DNA of 42,611 bases from Candidatus Caenarcanales bacterium (GTDB taxonomy: Bacteria > Cyanobacteriota > Vampirovibrionia > Caenarcaniphilales > Caenarcanaceae). A model generated the notes under the pieces. The model was not told the DNA's origin. It worked only from the letters and a program-made list of their open reading frames with translations, and did not search any database. Position 1 is the first letter of the stretch, and the number at the start of each line of letters is the position of its first letter. Of the stretch, positions 9,726 to 26,261 are shown piece by piece. Where the stretch lies: the NCBI GenBank assembly GCA_033761855.1, contig JANRMG010000065.1:1-42611 (forward strand). The letters are read 5' to 3'. The position numbers were made by a program, and so were the translations under genes.

Positions 9726-11174
9726 TTGATGTTTGCCAAAATCAATCCGAGTAAAACTTTTAATTCGAATACTCTTTCTGCTTATTCATCGAGCGTCAAT
9801 ATTGGAATATTAAATTCTGGAAATGCTACAGTCGTTTCTTCGATTCTGTCTTCAGCGCTTCCACCGGGGATTTCGGTTTTGGATTTAAATGAGCTAAAAA
9901 AAGCTCCCGATTTCGATAATAAAGCTGCTTCTCTTCAAAAACAGTTGAGTGTAAAAAAGTTTTTAAAAATTCTCTTTGAGCTTGCAATGGCCTTTGCTGG
10001 TTATAAAATCATGCCAACTTTAAAGTCAAAAGTCTCAGACACAAACTTAGTTTCGGGCGTTTCAGGCTTAAAAGAAAAATACATTAATCCTAAATCCCAA
10101 AATCTTAATGAGCAGGCTGAGACTTTCTTTGGATTCAAGATTGATTTAAGCAACCCTTTTGATGTAATAAAACAATTCATTGGTCTTGATTTGAATAATT
10201 CTGTGGTTGGTTTGATTGGTGGCTATGGTTTGGGTGCGCTGCTGGTTAGATTATTTGATAATTTGACAAAAAATATAAATTTACCCTCTTCTGAAACTTC
10301 TTTTCCAGAGAAGAAAGTATTGAAGAAAAGCTTCTTTGATAAGTTTGTTGATTTTTCAATTAAATTAATCTCTTCGCTTACAGTTGCTAATTGGGTACAT
10401 TCAAAAATTAAAAATCCCTTTGTTGAATTTGGGGCTTTAGTTTTGGGTTATGGAATTGGTGAAGGAATAGCTCTTTTCGATGAGTTTTTAAAAAATAAAA
10501 TATACCAAAGTCTTGGCCCGCCGTTAGAAAAGCTTACCGGTACAAAGCTTAAGGAAGAAGATGATCCTAAACAAGAATGGAATTTTGCGGCTTCACTTGC
10601 CAGATCTATTGCTTTGGCGATTTTGGTTTTTATAAAATATATTGTCTTTTTACCAAAGAAAAAATTTCTTTTTTACCAAGCTCAGTATGAGCCTTTAAAG
10701 AAAACAAAGAACGATTTTCTTCTTTCAACCAATAACCATTTAAAGCTACAAGTTGTACCAAGTGCAAATATAAAACCCGCAAAATTTGACCCGGAGGCTA
10801 TTCCCTCGCAGAATATTGAATATACTTATGAATGGCTTGATTCAATCTCTGCAGCTATTAAGCAAGAGAAAAAAGAAAAGCTTTCTCTAGTTAGATTTTT
10901 TTCTAATGCTTACTTAAAACATCTGAAGATGGTTATGAATACAGTACGTTCGCCTAAATTTACTGAAGTGGCTTCCAGAGAGTCTTCTTCAACTAGAGAT
11001 AAGACTGTGGCTTTGATTCAGGATTCAGGCCGAAATATTTTATATAAGTTTCCTTTAAGTTTTTTGATTGTTTTTTACGGAACAGCCGCAGAATTTGTTT
11101 TGCATTTGTTAAACCCTCTTTGGGACTCGCTTAAATCTTTGTTTAAGAAACCTTTTTCCCAGAGTGTTTCTTGA
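9726..11174 (+). CDS. Hypothetical multi-pass membrane protein
   Basis: 482-aa ORF with several hydrophobic segments and a Ser/Thr/Asn-rich N-terminus. No family is recognised. The likely start is the ATG at 9729. Confidence 0.6.
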   Translation: MMFAKINPSKTFNSNTLSAYSSSVNIGILNSGNATVVSSILSSALPPGISVLDLNELKKAPDFDNKAASLQKQLSVKKFLKILFELAMAFAGYKIMPTLKSKVSDTNLVSGVSGLKEKYINPKSQNLNEQAETFFGFKIDLSNPFDVIKQFIGLDLNNSVVGLIGGYGLGALLVRLFDNLTKNINLPSSETSFPEKKVLKKSFFDKFVDFSIKLISSLTVANWVHSKIKNPFVEFGALVLGYGIGEGIALFDEFLKNKIYQSLGPPLEKLTGTKLKEEDDPKQEWNFAASLARSIALAILVFIKYIVFLPKKKFLFYQAQYEPLKKTKNDFLLSTNNHLKLQVVPSANIKPAKFDPEAIPSQNIEYTYEWLDSISAAIKQEKKEKLSLVRFFSNAYLKHLKMVMNTVRSPKFTEVASRESSSTRDKTVALIQDSGRNILYKFPLSFLIVFYGTAAEFVLHLLNPLWDSLKSLFKKPFSQSVS

Positions 11175-11208
11175 GATTGGATAGAATTCCTTAGATTTAT
11201 CCATCGTC

Positions 11209-11229
11209 ATTCCGAGCTTGTCTCGGAAT
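11209..11229. repeat. 8-bp stem / 5-nt loop hairpin, related to 2204..2224
   Basis: ATTCCGAG-CTTGT-CTCGGAAT, midway between convergent stops at 11174 and 11263. Confidence 0.7.
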
Positions 11230-11262
11230 CTTAATTTTAACGTGAGGACTAGATGACGTTTG

Positions 11263-12153
11263 TTAGTTGTTGGTTTGTCTAAACCCCAAAGCTAAAGAAC
11301 CCAAAGAACCCGCACGGTCACCGAGGGCTGGATGAATGATGTAGTTATCTAAATTCTCTATAATTTCTTTAGTTTTTATGTAGCCGTTGAGAAGCTCTTT
11401 GGTTTTGCTTCTTACTTTCTCTAGCAAACCTTCTGTCTTTGCAACTCCGCCTCCCATGATAATTCTCTGTGGCGAGAGTAGACAAACAATATTTACTAAT
11501 CCACAGGCCAAATAGTAAGCCTCAAGCTCATAAGCAGGATGATCTGGTGGAATCTCTGTAGCTTTAATTTTCCATCTCTCTTCGATCGCTGTTCCAGAGG
11601 CCATTCCCTCTAGGCAGTTTTTATGGAAGGGACAGCAACCCTCGAAGCTATCGTCTTTGTGTATTGGAACTTTAATGTGTCCCATTTCGGTGTGAAGCAT
11701 TCCATGAATTAATTTACTATTAGACATTGCGCCTCCCCCAATGCCAGTCCCCACTGTTAGAAAAACTATATCATCTAGGTTTTGCCCCGCTCCCCATTGC
11801 TTTTCGCCCATTAAAGCGGCATTTACGTCTGTGTCAAAACTGATTGGGACTTTAAATTCTTCTTTTAAAAGACCAACAATATTTGTATCTTGCCAACCCT
11901 CTTTGGGGGTAGAGGTTATGTAACCGTAAGTCCCAGAGGCGGGATTCAAGTCTAGAGGGCCAAAACATCCAACACCAATGGCTGCAAGATCATAAGATTG
12001 TGTTTCTTTTTTTATAAAATCTATAACTTTTTGTAATGTCTCTTTCGGAGAGGTTGTTGGAATTACAATTTCTTTTTTTATATCTTGTGGTGAAGAGCCA
12101 AATAGGCAGTTAAATTTAGTTCCACCACCTTCGATTCCTGCAAATACTTTCAT
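11263..12153 (-). CDS. ROK-family sugar kinase (fructokinase-like)
   Basis: 'GIEGGGTKF' N-terminal ATP motif, 'GTGIGGG', and a Zn-site-like 'CCPFHKNCLEGMASG'. Confidence 0.85.
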   Translation of the reverse strand: MKVFAGIEGGGTKFNCLFGSSPQDIKKEIVIPTTSPKETLQKVIDFIKKETQSYDLAAIGVGCFGPLDLNPASGTYGYITSTPKEGWQDTNIVGLLKEEFKVPISFDTDVNAALMGEKQWGAGQNLDDIVFLTVGTGIGGGAMSNSKLIHGMLHTEMGHIKVPIHKDDSFEGCCPFHKNCLEGMASGTAIEERWKIKATEIPPDHPAYELEAYYLACGLVNIVCLLSPQRIIMGGGVAKTEGLLEKVRSKTKELLNGYIKTKEIIENLDNYIIHPALGDRAGSLGSLALGFRQTNN

Positions 12154-12268
12154 GTGTAAAAATAAACCCTTAAATGTTTTTAAAGGTTAAATTACATTTT
12201 AAATTTTCGGCAAATTGTTTTTTTAATACTAATTTTCAATTTAAAAATAATTTCTTTGAACTCTGTTT

Positions 12269-23273: not shown

Positions 23274-23369
23274 ATGGATTTAGCATTATTTTTTTTAGTC
23301 GTAGCAGTATTTGTTCTAGCATTATTTGCTGGAAAAATTATTGATTTTCTTTTTAAGAAGCGTTATTAA
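23274..23369 (+). CDS. Candidate 31-aa hydrophobic peptide (MDLALFFLVVAVFVLALFAGKIIDFLFKKRY)
   Basis: Not in the supplied ORF track because it is under 60 aa. It has one TM helix and a basic tail, and its 3' end overlaps the convergent recombinase gene by 17 nt. The SD is weak. Confidence 0.3.
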   Translation: MDLALFFLVVAVFVLALFAGKIIDFLFKKRY

Positions 23370-24090
23370 ATGATTTTTCAGGCAGAGTTTTTACTCTTTC
23401 CATAATTCTTTTTACTGTCATAGGCTTAAATTCCTTTCCAGTTCTGGTTCTAATTCCATCGTGGTTTAGTTCTTCCGAAATTCGTTTATAGGTTTTTCCT
23501 TCGGTTTTCATTCTTGAAAGCCTTTTTTCTAAAGACGAATAATATTGTTTTGCTTCTTCTATTTTGTATTGAGCCTGCTTCCATCTATGTTCCTTAAGGC
23601 TTTTCTCGTTGCCGAGTTTTTCGCCACGCGCTTTTTTGGACTGTAAAGCCTCAATAGTCCGTTTTGATATTAATCTTGCCTCTTCTTCATAAACTGCTGC
23701 TTTAATTTGTAGGATGAACGGAGAATCGCTTGGTGCATCAGCACAAATAAAATTGATTCCAGCTTGCATTAAAAAGCTAATTAATAACTGGTTTCTTCCA
23801 AGCCTGGATAAATCTTTAATTACTAATGTCACCTTTTCTTTTTGGCAGTATTCAATTAGCTCTTTTAAAATTGGCCTTTTTTTTAGAAGAGAATCAAGGT
23901 TTAGACTTTGCTTAATGCTAATTCTTGTTTTATTTGTTCCAGTTTCTATTTCTATGGCTTCTTTGATTAGTTCACCATTTACGTTTTTAATATAGTTGCT
24001 ATTAATTCTCTGTTGTGCTTCTATTCCTAGCTTGGAATCACCTTGCTTGTCTGTTGATACGCGAATGTAGGAGGCATATTTATTACTCAT
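23353..24090 (-). CDS. Small serine recombinase (resolvase/invertase family)
   Basis: 'YIRVSTDKQ' catalytic-Ser motif at the N-terminus and a C-terminal DNA-binding-like 'LNHDGIRTRTGKEF'. 245 aa, flanked by very AT-rich spacers. Confidence 0.88.
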   Translation of the reverse strand: MSNKYASYIRVSTDKQGDSKLGIEAQQRINSNYIKNVNGELIKEAIEIETGTNKTRISIKQSLNLDSLLKKRPILKELIEYCQKEKVTLVIKDLSRLGRNQLLISFLMQAGINFICADAPSDSPFILQIKAAVYEEEARLISKRTIEALQSKKARGEKLGNEKSLKEHRWKQAQYKIEEAKQYYSSLEKRLSRMKTEGKTYKRISEELNHDGIRTRTGKEFKPMTVKRIMERVKTLPEKSFNNAS

Positions 24091-24757: not shown

Positions 24758-25006
24758 AACAAATAAATTACTAAATACCTTTTAGGATATTTCTATTTTC
24801 TTACTTTATTTAGCTGAACTTTAAAAAGGCTTACTTCCTTAATTAAATTTTAAACAAGGCCTAATCCTTGAATTCATCGACTAATACAAAACATTAGCAA
24901 ATTACAGATTGTTAACTTGTATAACAAAATGTTTTTTTTGTGTAAGAGTGTCGGGCATAATGACTATGAAAACCTTACTTAACAAACTCTACAGGAGAGA
25001 TGTTTA

Positions 25007-25738
25007 ATGCTGAACGTACTTTTAGCGTTCTGTATGTTCCTATCAGGTTTAAGCTTTGATACCAATACCTCTGCATCTTTGCAAGGTACCGCTCTCAACG
25101 CTCCTGTTGCAACTACAGACGGTCCATTAAGTGATCTTTTGATCGCTGTAAACGACTTAAATCTTGATGAAGATGTAGACGCTTCCACTGAAACTACTGA
25201 ATCAAATGAAGTAGTTAGTGAAGAATCAACCTCTTCAGAGGATTATGTTTCTAATCTTGGTAATGTCGAAGATGACTTGATGGCCGATGGAAATGCTCCA
25301 GTTGGTTGCGGTCCTAGAGTTCGTCATTGCAGACCAAAAGCACGCTGCTGCGCTCCAAAGCGTCACAGATGCCATAAACCTAAGGCTCGTTGCTGCAAAC
25401 CAAAGGTTCGCAGATGTTCTCCAAAACCAAAGAGATGCTGCCACAGACCAGAAGTACGCAGATGCGCTCCTCAAGTACGCAGATGTGCACCACAGGTTCG
25501 TCGTTGCGCTCCACAGGTTCGAAGATGTGCACCTCAAGTTCGCAGATGCGCTCCAGCTCCAACCGTTGTTCGTCACGTAGCTCCAGTTGGTTGTGGTCCT
25601 GCAATGGTTAGAAGAATGCCAGTTCCAGTTGGTTGCGGTCCAGCCGTTCACGGTCATGACCACTACGAAGCTGTTCCTTCAAACTATGCTGGTGAAGAAG
25701 CTAGCTATGAAGCTCCAGCTATGAATGACCAAATGTAA
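25007..25738 (+). CDS. Secreted bipartite protein: acidic N-terminal half, then a basic Cys/Arg/Pro-rich repeat half
   Basis: The SD GGAGAG lies 8 nt upstream. The N-terminus 'MLNVLLAFCMFLSGLSF' is signal-like and is followed by a D/E/S/T-rich region. After that come 17 Cys in about 125 aa, with 5 VRRCAP(Q/A) heptads and 3 'PVGCGP' motifs. A strong terminator follows. Confidence 0.75.
   Translation: MLNVLLAFCMFLSGLSFDTNTSASLQGTALNAPVATTDGPLSDLLIAVNDLNLDEDVDASTETTESNEVVSEESTSSEDYVSNLGNVEDDLMADGNAPVGCGPRVRHCRPKARCCAPKRHRCHKPKARCCKPKVRRCSPKPKRCCHRPEVRRCAPQVRRCAPQVRRCAPQVRRCAPQVRRCAPAPTVVRHVAPVGCGPAMVRRMPVPVGCGPAVHGHDHYEAVPSNYAGEEASYEAPAMNDQM
25454..25558 (+). repeat. Five tandem 21-bp in-frame coding repeats (VRRCAPQ x4 plus VRRCAPA)
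   Basis: The units are GTACGCAGATGCGCTCCTCAA, GTACGCAGATGTGCACCACAG, GTTCGTCGTTGCGCTCCACAG, GTTCGAAGATGTGCACCTCAA and GTTCGCAGATGCGCTCCAGCT. Confidence 0.95.
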
Positions 25739-25764
25739 ATTTTAGTGAAAAGCTAATAAAATAA

Positions 25765-25797
25765 AGAGTCGCTCCTTCGGGTTGCGGCTCTTTTTTG
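25765..25797 (+). terminator. Intrinsic terminator with a UUCG-capped stem
   Basis: AGAGTCGC-tCC-TTCG-GGtt-GCGGCTCT followed by T6. Confidence 0.85.
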
Positions 25798-25868
25798 TTT
25801 ATATTAGATAAACAGTTCTTAATTTTAAGGAATTAAATTTAAACTACTTAATATTAAAAATTACAAAT

Positions 25869-26261
25869 ATGCCTCCAGAAGAAGCAAGCTGGTGTCCTAT
25901 AAGACCCCCTAATGCGCCAAGTAACAGTACTTGGCATTCATACAAACCGGAATGGCATTTAAGAGAAGCTGCTTCTGGACAAACAACTTGTCCAGAAACA
26001 AGAGATCCTAATATTCAAAGGCCGATTACAACATCGCAAGTTATTAATGGAATTCAAGGTATTGTGTCTTCTTATGGAGTTGGACAGAATCTAAATTTTT
26101 ATCAGCGTTCAACCCCAACTGAGACCGATAACCCAGATCAAGCTGACAGATTTGTTAGGGGTTCGCAACCATTTGAGAGGGTTGAATTAAGACCTCATCG
26201 CCAGCCTGTGGATCATACTGAAACAATTAATACAATTAACGAAAGAGCTCTAAACGATTAA
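25869..26261 (+). CDS. Hypothetical 130-aa protein (uncertain)
   Basis: Open frame only, with no SD and no recognisable motif. Confidence 0.3.
   Translation: MPPEEASWCPIRPPNAPSNSTWHSYKPEWHLREAASGQTTCPETRDPNIQRPITTSQVINGIQGIVSSYGVGQNLNFYQRSTPTETDNPDQADRFVRGSQPFERVELRPHRQPVDHTETINTINERALND

What the first reader, a model, noticed from the sequence alone, without database searches (positions are those of the whole stretch)
25007..25738. Secreted protein with an anionic pro-region and a cationic Cys-rich repeat domain
After a signal-like N-terminus come about 70 residues rich in D/E/S/T ('DLNLDEDVDASTETTESNEVVSEESTSSEDY...EDDLMADG'). This switches abruptly to an Arg/Lys/Pro/Cys region with 17 Cys in about 125 aa: a degenerate C-x-P-K-x-R-(C)C periodicity, then five VRRCAP(Q/A) heptads. 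The region is bracketed by three 'PVGCGP' motifs and followed by a His-rich 'HGHDH' and an acidic tail. The charge-neutralising propiece plus cationic disulfide-rich domain is the architecture of defensin-type pro-peptides. Other possibilities are a disulfide-cross-linked envelope or spore-coat-like structural protein, a metal-binding protein, or a nucleic-acid-condensing (protamine-like) protein. I know of no bacterial family with this repeat. The gene has its own SD and a strong terminator, so it looks like a well-expressed monocistron.
Basis: partly seen in the sequence, partly recalled or inferred. Interest (0 to 1): 0.62.

Follow-up and report, generated by a model that had tools for sequence, protein, structure and literature searches.

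The report
Exported cationic cysteine-heptad orphan protein
This is a real, probably highly expressed gene of an uncultured non-photosynthetic cyanobacterial relative; it encodes an exported, unstructured protein with an acidic block and then a strongly basic block carrying one cysteine every seven residues, it has no known relatives, and it most likely acts as a cross-linking envelope or matrix protein rather than as a defensin-like peptide.

Summary
ORF 25007-25738 (+) encodes 243 aa: a hydrophobic N-terminus, a conserved GPLxxLLIAVNDL motif, an acidic block (net -16), a 119-aa basic block (net +31, 17 Cys, 20 Pro), three PVGCGP motifs and an acidic tail. It has an SD, a conserved -10-like box and a strong terminator.

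Four identical VRRCAPQ units differ only at synonymous sites, so the peptide is under selection. Codon usage matches ribosomal-protein genes.

The family is tiny. About a dozen cluster representatives turned up among 1.84 billion, in 7 of 9 genomes of one Caenarcaniphilales family and nowhere else in the class. Two divergent relatives lack the heptads. No Pfam, NCBIfam or PDB relative exists, and AlphaFold2 predicts disorder.

Defensin membership fails: no 6-Cys framework, no fold, and the acidic charge does not scale with the basic charge. Metallothionein-like binding is disfavoured because CxC/CxxC spacings are nearly absent.

My best reading (about 0.32) is an abundant Sec-exported polycation whose reactive RRC thiols and charge cross-link the envelope or matrix. 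The acidic block would help start export. Against enzymatic disulfide formation, the order lacks VKOR and a clear DsbB, and exported-like proteins show no even-Cys bias.

The function remains untested.

The parts
24953..24961 (+). Conserved GGGCATAAT box (-10-like promoter element), 45 nt upstream of the start codon
   Evidence: Invariant in four syntenic loci whose spacers are otherwise about 65% identical. The genome-wide count of 17 equals the chance expectation, so it is not a regulon signature. The consensus sigma-70 scan found no full promoter on the + strand.
24994..24999 (+). Shine-Dalgarno GGAGAG, 7 nt before the ATG
   Evidence: Read directly from the sequence. AGGAG is invariant in the four aligned loci.
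25007..25738 (+). CDS, 243 aa plus stop. It is an orphan exported polyampholyte.
   Evidence: It is single copy in the genome.
25007..25054 (+). Signal-peptide-like N-terminus MLNVLLAFCMFLSGLS (residues 1-16), with a possible signal-peptidase site after S16
   Evidence: This is the only confident AlphaFold2 element (helix 2-14, pLDDT about 81). Kyte-Doolittle hydropathy of residues 2-12 is 2.5. M1, L2, N3, F8, C9 and S13 are invariant in A1. Positions 14 and 16 hold small residues in almost all members. There is no K/R n-region, and SignalP was not available.
25121..25159 (+). Conserved motif GPLSDLLIAVNDL (residues 39-51)
   Evidence: P40, L41, L44, L45, A47, V48, N49 and D50 are invariant in A1. 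The divergent members P0028 and P0039 keep it as PLGxxLIAxN.
25154..25294 (+). Acidic Ser/Thr-rich block (residues 50-96, net -16), ending in the conserved DYVSNL..E.DL element
25295..25651 (+). Basic Cys/Pro/Arg block (residues 97-215): 17 Cys, net +31, family heptad consensus C-x-P-x-(V/A)-R-R
   Evidence: Over 223 Cys sites in the family, P sits at +2 in 71% and R at -2 in 61%. The block is predicted disordered.
25454..25558 (+). Five tandem 21-bp units encoding VRRCAPQ x4 and VRRCAPA
   Evidence: Tandem Repeats Finder: period 21, 5.1 copies. Differences among the four identical peptides are all synonymous.
25298..25315 (+). PVGCGP motif 1 (residues 98-103), at the start of the basic block
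   Evidence: G100, C101, G102 and P103 are invariant in A1.
25583..25600 (+). PVGCGP motif 2 (residues 193-198)
   Evidence: The divergent members keep a single PIGCGP.
25625..25642 (+). PVGCGP motif 3 (residues 207-212)
25652..25735 (+). Acidic, His-containing tail (residues 216-243, net -6). It lacks the C-terminal G(L/Y/I/M)W-COOH kept by 11 of 14 family members.
25763..25802 (+). Intrinsic terminator: a 10-bp G+C-rich stem followed by a U run
   Evidence: Fold energy -17.9 kcal/mol, z = -5.0, and 0 of 200 shuffles fold as well.

Best explanation
The gene encodes an abundant, Sec-exported, intrinsically disordered block polyampholyte that works as a cross-linking component of the cell envelope or its immediate matrix.

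Proposed steps:
1. The short hydrophobic N-terminus directs export.
2. The roughly 70 neutral-to-acidic residues that follow give the translocon a negatively charged segment to start on. They also keep the polycation from sitting right behind the signal, where positive charge blocks export.
3. Once outside the cytoplasm, the Arg/Lys-rich block (net +31) binds polyanionic envelope polymers such as lipid A/LPS phosphates, peptidoglycan carboxylates or acidic polysaccharide.
4. Its regularly spaced thiols sit next to Arg. By established thiol chemistry this should lower their pKa and make them reactive. They would form intermolecular disulfides, or thiol-mediated links, into a network.

What is shown: the gene is real, selected and conserved; the architecture; the predicted disorder; the heptad Cys/Pro/Arg periodicity; codon usage like highly expressed genes; the lineage restriction.

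What is inferred: export, location, binding partners, and cross-linking itself.
For: Conservation and selection on the peptide:
- 13 relatives share the layout.
- Repeat units differ only synonymously.

Export:
- The hydrophobic N-terminal helix is the only confident AlphaFold2 element.
- There are small residues at -3/-1 of a possible cleavage site after residue 16.
- The flank after the helix is acidic, which by the charge-difference (positive-inside) rule favours an N-in/C-out orientation (inference).
- No other hydrophobic segment is present.

Structural or network role:
- Cys comes every 7 residues with Pro at +2 and Arg at -1/-2, over 223 sites.
- Repeat number and Cys count vary (11-25, both odd and even) while the periodicity is kept. 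That fits a non-stoichiometric cross-linker rather than a fixed fold.
- Chelating CxC/CxxC spacings are nearly absent.
- The core has almost no aromatic or Leu residues, and the model is disordered (pLDDT 49).

Abundance:
- CAI is 0.769, equal to the best of 21 ribosomal-protein/EF-Tu genes. The log-likelihood score lies at the 99.9th percentile of 1907 ORFs.
- The gene has a good SD, a conserved -10-like box and a strong terminator.

Cysteine as the point of the protein: the exported-like ORFs of this genome follow a cysteine-exclusion trend, so a 17-Cys exported protein is a clear outlier.
Against: - There is no expression, localisation or redox data. No RNA run holds the gene.
- The signal-like N-terminus has no basic n-region, is unusually conserved for a cleaved signal, and could not be scored with SignalP.
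- The order has no VKOR (0 of 9 genomes) and no convincing DsbB.
- The only DsbA-like protein has a monothiol CPFG/CPYG site.
- Exported-like proteins show no even-Cys bias (criterion from PMC2823432). Enzyme-catalysed periplasmic disulfide formation is therefore doubtful, and cross-linking would have to be spontaneous or happen outside the cell.
- Two of nine genomes in the family lack the gene, also at the syntenic site, so it is dispensable.
- Two divergent relatives have only 4-5 Cys and no heptads, so the ancestral function may not depend on the Cys array.
- Export of a +31 domain through Sec is energetically unfavourable.
Confidence: 0.32

Rival explanations
1. Pro-form of a cationic antimicrobial or prey/host-directed polypeptide. 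The acidic block would neutralise the toxic cationic Cys/Pro/Arg block until it is exported or cleaved. The released polycation would then damage the membranes or intracellular targets of competitors or algal prey.
For: The signal / anionic / cationic order is conserved. The Pro/Arg-rich composition recalls proline-arginine-rich antimicrobial peptides (own knowledge). Relatives in the class include a predator of algae (own knowledge). High predicted expression is compatible with this role. An ABC exporter gene lies next to the gene in the window and in G006.
Against: The acidic charge does not scale with the basic charge (-9 to -18 against +10 to +62). There is no fixed Cys framework and no predicted fold. 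No protease, immunity or modification gene is linked. The ABC exporter is convergent, lacks a peptidase domain by Pfam, and is absent next to the gene in G003, G001, G002 and the P0006 contig. There are no defensin or bacteriocin family hits. A 119-aa domain is far longer than typical antimicrobial peptides.
Confidence: 0.13
2. Periplasmic or extracellular thiolate metal binder (metallothionein-like), sequestering a soft metal or metalloid such as Cu(I), Zn, Cd, Hg or As(III). The basic residues would offset the negative charge of the thiolate clusters.
For: The core is 15% Cys with almost no aromatic residues. CC doublets occur in the first half. The window copy has a His-containing tail, HGHDH. 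Without Dsb/VKOR the thiols would stay reduced and free to bind metal.
Against: Chelating spacings are nearly absent: one spacing of 2 and none of 3 across 12 homologues, with most spacings 7. Pro at +2 stiffens the chain between Cys residues. A net +31 is far more than cluster neutralisation needs. The His motif is not conserved. There is no metallothionein or metal-chaperone family hit. No metal-resistance genes lie nearby.
Confidence: 0.13
3. Exported polyanion condenser or adhesive. The cationic block would bind extracellular DNA, polyphosphate or acidic exopolysaccharide. Together with its own acidic block it would drive complex coacervation, giving a biofilm or attachment cement that thiol oxidation can then cure.
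For: The charge blocks are strongly segregated in a disordered chain. The protamine-like RRC context is present. Relatives come from sediment, soil, freshwater and marine samples, and the order is reported from mats, biofilms and sinking particles. High predicted expression fits.
Against: No route across the outer membrane is evident. No matrix or polysaccharide genes are linked. The charge ratio varies widely (net -7 to +43). This reading overlaps heavily with the best explanation and differs mainly in location and partner.
Confidence: 0.15
4. Cytoplasmic, membrane-tethered, protamine-like nucleoid or RNA condenser. The hydrophobic N-terminus would act as an anchor rather than an export signal.
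For: The Arg/Cys-rich composition resembles cysteine-containing protamines (own knowledge; PMC5238724 and PMC5122968 on disulfide-linked protamines). There is no basic n-region on the 'signal'. The positive-inside rule disfavours export of a +31 domain.
Against: The acidic flank right after the hydrophobic helix favours a C-out orientation (inference). The hydrophobic N-terminus and small -3/-1 residues are conserved in all members. Arg content (about 19%) is far below that of protamines. The acidic block has no role in this model.
Confidence: 0.05

Closest known systems
Chlamydial cysteine-rich envelope proteins OmcA/OmcB (outer membrane complex)
   Same: They are exported, Cys-rich envelope proteins of a diderm bacterium whose intermolecular disulfides stiffen the envelope (background literature listed, e.g. 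PMC6812762). This is the nearest bacterial functional analogy for the best explanation.
   Different: There is no sequence relationship. OmcA is a lipoprotein and OmcB is a folded protein. Here there is no lipobox: F sits at -1, and Cys9 is Ser in G001. The chain is disordered and strongly cationic, with a strict heptad, and carries an acidic pro-like block.
Mammalian high-sulfur keratin-associated proteins and small proline-rich (cornified-envelope) proteins
   Same: They are low-complexity Cys/Pro-rich short repeats, including CC doublets next to Pro and Lys/Arg. Repeat number varies, and they act as cross-linkers rather than folded domains (own knowledge).
   Different: These are eukaryotic and cytosolic, with no signal peptide or acidic block and a pentapeptide or decapeptide period. 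There is no Pfam Keratin_B2-type match, even at E<=10 for the window protein and E<=1 for the 14 family members. The resemblance is convergent in composition only.
Cysteine-containing sperm protamines
   Same: Arg-flanked Cys (the RRC context), polycationic, disordered, and stabilised by intermolecular disulfides (PMC5238724, PMC5122968).
   Different: Protamines are nuclear, about 50 aa and about 50% Arg. This domain is 119 aa with 19-20% Arg, lies behind an export-type N-terminus, and carries an acidic block.
Defensin / cathelicidin-type prepropeptides
   Same: The order is the same: signal peptide, anionic propiece, cationic Cys-containing C-terminal part.
   Different: There is no 6-Cys framework, no fold, no charge matching, no homology and no processing partner.
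Cystine/proline-rich wall proteins of Planctomycetes (YTV-type), and the 28%-Cys planctomycete orphan noted earlier in this scan (e1-3055388)
   Same: They are exported, Cys- and Pro-rich, lineage-restricted bacterial proteins thought to build a proteinaceous envelope (own knowledge; neither was checked here).
   Different: The phylum is different and no shared sequence motif was found by any search here. Those proteins lack the acidic block and the RRCxP heptad.

Membership tests
Defensin-type pro-peptide | Signal peptide, then anionic propiece, then cationic mature part | tested here: met
   Block charges are about -16/-18, +31 and -6 behind a hydrophobic N-terminus.
Defensin-type pro-peptide | Fixed framework of 6 (or 8) Cys forming intramolecular disulfides in a 30-50 aa domain | tested here: not met
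   There are 17 Cys at about 7-residue spacing over 119 aa. Relatives have 11-25 Cys, both odd and even.
Defensin-type pro-peptide | Compact beta-sheet or CS-alpha-beta fold | tested here: not met
   AlphaFold2 with the family alignment gives pLDDT 49 and no secondary structure in the basic block. The alignment is shallow (10 sequences), so this is not conclusive on its own.
Defensin-type pro-peptide | Sequence match to a defensin or antimicrobial peptide family | tested here: not met
   Pfam, NCBIfam and PADLOC give no relevant hit at permissive E-values.
Defensin-type pro-peptide | Propiece charge balances the mature-peptide charge | tested here: not met
   The acidic block is -9 to -18 while the basic block is +10 to +62. 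Whole-protein net charge runs from -7 to +43.
Metallothionein-like metal binder | Cys mostly in CxC, CxxC and CC chelating motifs | tested here: not met
   Only CC doublets occur. There is one spacing of 2 and none of 3 in 12 homologues, and the dominant spacing is 7.
Metallothionein-like metal binder | High Cys content and absence of aromatic residues | tested here: met
   The core is 15% Cys, with Y+F about 0.5% and no W.
Metallothionein-like metal binder | Metal-thiolate clusters | not testable with these tools
   This needs ICP-MS or spectroscopy on purified protein.
Chlamydial OmcA/OmcB-type cross-linked envelope protein | Sequence homology | tested here: not met
   No Pfam or NCBIfam match. 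The exhaustive profile search returns only the orphan family and low-complexity look-alikes.
Chlamydial OmcA/OmcB-type cross-linked envelope protein | Export signal, or a lipobox in the case of OmcA | tested here: inconclusive
   A hydrophobic N-terminus is present. There is no lipobox, since Cys9 is preceded by Phe and is replaced by Ser in G001. There is no basic n-region, and SignalP was not available.
Chlamydial OmcA/OmcB-type cross-linked envelope protein | Intermolecular disulfide network in the envelope | not testable with these tools
   Context argues against enzymatic oxidation: no VKOR, no clear DsbB, a monothiol DsbA-like protein, and no even-Cys bias.
Keratin-associated / SPRR-type cross-linker | Family-level sequence match (Keratin_B2 and similar) | tested here: not met
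   No hit at E<=10 for the window protein or at E<=1 for the 14 family members.
Keratin-associated / SPRR-type cross-linker | Short Cys/Pro repeats of variable number in a disordered chain | tested here: met
Protamine-like nucleic-acid condenser | Arg about 45-70% of residues, and nuclear or nucleoid location | tested here: not met
   Arg is 19-20% of the basic block, and the N-terminus looks like an export signal. Location itself could not be tested.
Sec signal peptide | Positively charged n-region | tested here: not met
   No K/R precedes the hydrophobic core in any of the 14 members.
Sec signal peptide | Hydrophobic h-region of 7-15 residues followed by small residues at -3 and -1 | tested here: met
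   Residues 2-12 have mean hydropathy 2.5. Position 16 is S or G in all 14 members. Position 14 is G, N or S, with A in G002.

The most novel reading that the evidence does not exclude
A self-masked, protamine/keratin-associated-protein-like polycation is exported by a bacterium that otherwise keeps cysteine out of its exported proteins and lacks a Dsb/VKOR oxidation system. The reduced, Arg-activated thiol array would act as an oxidant-triggered 'curing' cement. On exposure to oxygen, or on contact with a surface or prey, the protein would bind polyanions and harden into a disulfide network. This would be a bacterial counterpart of cornified-envelope or sandcastle-worm-type polyelectrolyte adhesives, evolved independently in non-photosynthetic cyanobacterial relatives.
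Probability: 0.12. Interest if true: 0.75.

Novelty: new variant of a known kind. Interest (0 to 1): 0.45.

Why it matters
Caenarcaniphilales are uncultured, and almost nothing is known about their cell surface or way of life. A gene that looks as highly expressed as ribosomal-protein genes, has no relatives outside this small lineage, and places a thiol every seven residues in an exported polycation is a good candidate for a lineage-defining envelope, attachment or attack component. If the cross-linking reading is right, it would be an independent invention of the disulfide-network strategy seen in chlamydial elementary bodies and in animal hair and skin. It would also have arisen in an organism that seems to lack the usual periplasmic oxidation enzymes. 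Finally, it would be a simple natural model of a block polyampholyte with built-in chemical curing.

Tried and rejected
- **Family and structure look-ups.** Pfam, NCBIfam and PADLOC gave nothing. The only hit, DUF2457 at E = 0.0016, is below its cut-off and reflects the acidic low-complexity region. A PDB sequence search returned only designed coiled coils at E >= 0.003. Rfam found nothing in the flanks.
- **Fold search.** I did not run Foldseek because the model has pLDDT 49.
- **Homology beyond the family.** Profile searches of 400 genomes of the class and of 1.84 billion representatives found only the orphan family, two divergent members, and unrelated heptad Cys-Pro low-complexity proteins such as P0015 and P0016, which match the repeat part only.
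- **Operon or partner.** The aroQ-then-gene adjacency is conserved in five loci, but with a spacer of about 200-250 nt and a separate conserved -10-like box. The other neighbours (fabI, recombinase, ABC exporter, rpmB, glgE-like) are housekeeping or not conserved next to the gene. I rejected a RiPP or bacteriocin cluster, since no modification enzyme or peptidase-ABC is present. I also rejected type 1 secretion, since no membrane-fusion partner is present.
- **Lipoprotein.** Rejected.
- **Opposite-strand ORF 25235-25663.** Rejected, because the synonymous-only variation fits the + frame.
- **Regulon via GGGCATAAT.** The genome-wide count equals the chance expectation.
- **Expression.** No RNA run holds the window gene. 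The 'any' searches, on the window gene with its flanks and on the G006 orthologue, listed only DNA runs.
- **Hidden orthologue in G005/G007.** Nothing at the syntenic site.
- **Literature.** Nothing on this protein or on Cys-rich proteins of Melainabacteria.
Full report
**1. The observation.** The window holds an uninterrupted ORF at 25007-25738 on the + strand, 243 codons.
- A hydrophobic N-terminus, MLNVLLAFCMFLSGLSF.
- An acidic Ser/Thr-rich block, residues 50-96, with 8 Asp and 8 Glu and no basic residue (net -16).
- A basic block, residues 97-215, with 17 Cys, 24 Arg, 8 Lys, 20 Pro and net +31.
- Five VRRCAP(Q/A) heptads at 25454-25558, preceded by a VRRCSPK.
- Three PVGCGP motifs, an HGHDH, and an acidic tail of net -6.

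Tandem Repeats Finder sees the 21-bp period, 5.1 copies at 73% matches. GGAGAG lies 7 nt before the ATG. The hairpin after the stop folds at -17.9 kcal/mol, with z = -5.0 against shuffles, and is followed by a U run. The simple terminator scan missed it because its loop rule is too tight.

**2. It is a real, selected gene.** The four units that encode VRRCAPQ differ from each other only at synonymous positions. Of 55 pairwise nucleotide differences among the five units, 43 are synonymous. The other 12 all come from the single Q-to-A codon in the last unit. Only 25% of random single changes would be synonymous. This confirms an earlier first-reader note on the same repeats (e1-3359368). It also rules out the 142-codon ORF on the opposite strand.

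Nine homologues (38-55% identity) turned up in a 5.8-billion-protein collection, one of them labelled 'Candidatus Caenarcaniphilales'. They align from the first to the last residue. The public gene call for the window copy begins at Met10 (234 aa). However, M1, L2, N3, F8, C9 and S13 are invariant in alignment A1, so Met1 is the true start.

**3. Who has it.**
- The window's genome (2.33 Mb, 356 contigs, 38% G+C, 92% complete) has one copy.
- In the species-representative genome set, 7 of the 9 genomes of its order carry the gene. All nine belong to one family.
- About 400 genomes were sampled across the class. Outside that one family, none gives more than low-complexity noise, often with stop codons inside.
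- The two non-carriers are the best-assembled genomes (8-9 contigs). They also have nothing at the syntenic position downstream of aroQ. The gene is therefore dispensable.
- An exhaustive HMM search of 1.84 billion cluster representatives found only 12 proteins at E < 1e-30.
- That search also found two divergent members, P0028 and P0039 (206 and 182 aa), from a 99-kb contig of a more distant relative and from a marine metagenome. On the 99-kb contig, Era, FolP and MurT are about 45% identical to the window genome. No further members of that branch exist in the collection.
- The divergent members keep the N-terminus (MLExLxALCLSLSGLG), the PLGxxLIAxN motif, an acidic stretch, one PIGCGP, a basic region and the C-terminal (R/K)GYW. 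They have only 4-5 Cys and no heptads.
- The heptad array is thus an expansion inside an older small family. The window copy has lost the C-terminal Trp that 11 of 14 members keep.
- Holders and relatives come from soil, freshwater, marine and marine-sediment metagenomes.

**4. Surroundings.** The neighbours are fabI, a serine recombinase, aroQ (upstream, same strand, 249-nt spacer), a convergent ABC exporter, rpmB and a GlgE-like gene. The aroQ-then-gene order recurs in five loci. The ABC exporter recurs only in G006. G001, G002 and G003 have other neighbours. No protease, modification enzyme, immunity gene or secretion partner is linked.

In four syntenic loci the spacer is about 65% identical overall. 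Within it, a block GGGCATAAT 45 nt before the ATG and the AGGAG are invariant. That fits the gene having its own promoter. The 9-mer is not enriched genome-wide: 17 copies, which is the chance expectation. Rfam finds nothing.

**5. Expression proxy.** No RNA run holds the window gene. Searches for runs of any kind, on the gene with its flanks and on the G006 orthologue, listed only DNA runs. I therefore built a reference from 20 ribosomal-protein genes, identified from three r-protein operons, plus EF-Tu. Against this reference the gene has CAI 0.769. That equals the best reference gene and lies at the 97th percentile of 1907 ORFs. The log-likelihood score lies at the 99.9th percentile. The acidic and basic halves behave alike, at 0.752 and 0.749. 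The gene avoids CGG, AGG, CCG, CCC, GTG and GGG, and prefers TGC, GGT, GCT, GTT and CCA.

**6. Anatomy of the protein.** AlphaFold2 with the family alignment gives mean pLDDT 49. The only elements are a helix at residues 2-14 (pLDDT about 81) and a short helix at 87-92. I read the chain as disordered.

Across 12 homologues, Cys spacing is dominated by 7, or by 6+1 where there is a CC doublet. There is one spacing of 2 and none of 3. Over 223 Cys sites, Pro is at +2 in 71%, Arg at -2 in 61% and Arg at -1 in 51%. The heptad is C-x-P-x-(V/A)-R-R. The core is 19% Arg, 16% Pro, 15% Cys, 12% Val and 11% Ala, with almost no aromatic residues, Leu or Asp. Cys counts run from 11 to 25, both odd and even, and repeat numbers differ in every homologue. 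The acidic block carries -9 to -18 whatever the basic block carries (+10 to +62), and net charge ranges from -7 to +43.

**7. The N-terminus.**
- The hydrophobic core (residues 2-12, hydropathy 2.5) is followed by S13-G14-L15-S16. Position 16 is Ser or Gly in all 14 members, and position 14 is Gly, Asn or Ser, with Ala in G002. That fits a -3/-1 signal-peptidase site after residue 16.
- No member has a basic n-region, whereas other exported proteins of these genomes do.
- Cys9 is not a lipobox Cys: Phe sits at -1, and Cys9 is Ser in G001.
- The flank after the helix is acidic, which by the positive-inside / charge-difference rule favours C-out. This is inference from established membrane-protein topology rules.
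- I could not run SignalP, so export is likely but not shown.

**8. Redox context.**
- No genome of the order has VKOR, while the cyanobacterial control does.
- DsbB gives only borderline matches inside 665-705-aa frames in three genomes, and none in the window genome.
- The only DsbA/Thioredoxin_4-like protein is a lipoprotein of about 320 aa in the relatives (363-aa open frame in the window genome). Its active site reads CPFG or CPYG, a monothiol, not CxxC.
- I selected a set of exported-like ORFs with a crude rule: K/R n-region, hydrophobic core, small -3/-1, and no further hydrophobic segment. For 0, 1, 2... 8+ Cys this set gives counts of 50, 38, 32, 18, 19, 7, 5, 7, 11. That is the 'cysteine exclusion' pattern, not the even-number bias that marks organisms making structural disulfides (criterion from PMC2823432).
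- My signal rule is rough, so this is moderate evidence.
- It cuts two ways. Enzyme-driven disulfide formation is doubtful. But a 17-Cys exported protein in such a proteome is a deliberate exception, which suggests thiol chemistry is its point.

**9. What it most likely does.** I favour an abundant exported polycation that cross-links the envelope or its matrix.
- The acidic segment right behind the signal fits the established finding that positive charge close to a signal peptide blocks Sec export. It may also mask the polycation before export.
- The basic block would bind anionic envelope polymers.
- The evenly spaced, Arg-flanked thiols should be reactive, because neighbouring positive charge lowers thiol pKa (established thiol chemistry). 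They would then form intermolecular links.
- Variable repeat number, odd or even Cys counts, disorder, the lack of chelating spacings and the high predicted expression all fit a network-forming structural role better than a folded effector.

I put this at about 0.32, because location, redox state and partners are all inferred and the oxidation machinery is missing.

**10. Rivals.**
- Antimicrobial or prey-directed pro-peptide (0.13). The layout fits. But there is no Cys framework, no fold, no charge matching and no linked processing or immunity gene, and the domain is 119 aa long.
- Metallothionein-like binder (0.13). The thiols probably stay reduced and aromatic residues are absent. But CxC/CxxC motifs are nearly absent, Pro stiffens the spacers, and the His motif is not conserved.
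- Extracellular polyanion condenser or adhesive coacervate (0.15). This overlaps with my reading and differs in place and partner. No route across the outer membrane is evident.
- Cytoplasmic protamine-like condenser (0.05). This is contradicted by the conserved export-like N-terminus and acidic flank, and by the modest Arg content.
- The remaining probability goes to functions not considered here.

**11. Comparison with known families.** No membership can be claimed. The defensin, metallothionein, OmcA/OmcB, keratin-associated protein and protamine tests each fail on at least one defining feature (see the membership table). The closest analogues by function are the chlamydial cysteine-rich envelope proteins. 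By composition, the closest are keratin-associated/SPRR proteins and cysteine-containing protamines. All of these resemblances are convergent. I did not check it. It suggests that such proteins recur in uncultured lineages.

**12. Verdict.** This is a lineage-restricted orphan family whose function is unknown. Interest is moderate (0.45). It stands out for its regularity, its likely abundance and its redox context, but nothing here yet shows a new mechanism.

Noticed in passing
window 25007-25033: The public gene call for this ORF (P0001, 234 aa) starts at Met10 and drops the conserved MLNxLLAFC N-terminus. All relatives support Met1 at 25007.
   Followed up: yes
window 23353-24090 (-): The lone serine recombinase between fabI and aroQ sits at the same place in a relative's contig (P0009 contig: nuoI-like, fabI, resolvase, aroQ, Cys-rich gene). 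It is therefore an old resident, not a recent insertion.
   Followed up: partly
G000:C202:4367-4645 (-) and L020 1399-2358 (-): The only DsbA/Thioredoxin_4-like protein of the order is a lipoprotein of about 320 aa in the relatives (363-aa open frame in the window genome). Its active site is a monothiol CPFG/CPYG instead of CxxC. VKOR is absent from all 9 genomes, and DsbB matches are borderline.
   Followed up: partly
whole genome G000: Exported-like ORFs, selected by a crude signal rule, show a cysteine-exclusion pattern. Counts for 0..8+ Cys are 50, 38, 32, 18, 19, 7, 5, 7, 11, with no even-number bias.
   Followed up: partly
G000:C318:1550-1558 and the ORF 42 nt downstream: A second GGGCATAAT box sits at the same distance before a 195-aa signal-bearing Tyr/Asn/Gln-rich low-complexity ORF. 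This may be coincidence, because the genome-wide count of the 9-mer equals chance.
   Followed up: partly
window 25652-25735; alignment A2: Eleven of 14 family members end in G/S-(L/Y/I/M)-W-COOH, including the divergent heptad-less ones. The window copy (…NDQM), P0014 and G002 do not. The role of the conserved C-terminal Trp is unexplained; it could be a PDZ or protease ligand.
   Followed up: no
L016 (G002:C12) about 10094-12170: The stretch directly upstream of the G002 homologue reads as N (withheld or masked). The '883-aa open frame' reported for that hit is therefore an artefact of the N run.
   Followed up: yes
window 25869-26261 (+): This 130-codon ORF, between the terminator and the convergent ABC exporter, has no family hit and no counterpart in the syntenic G006 locus. 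It is probably not a gene.
   Followed up: partly
P0015, P0016: Unrelated long proteins carry dozens of Cys-Pro heptads (SQCAPxI and DPCDPVI). They match only the repeat part of the profile. They look eukaryotic, so heptad Cys-x-Pro arrays have arisen more than once.
   Followed up: no
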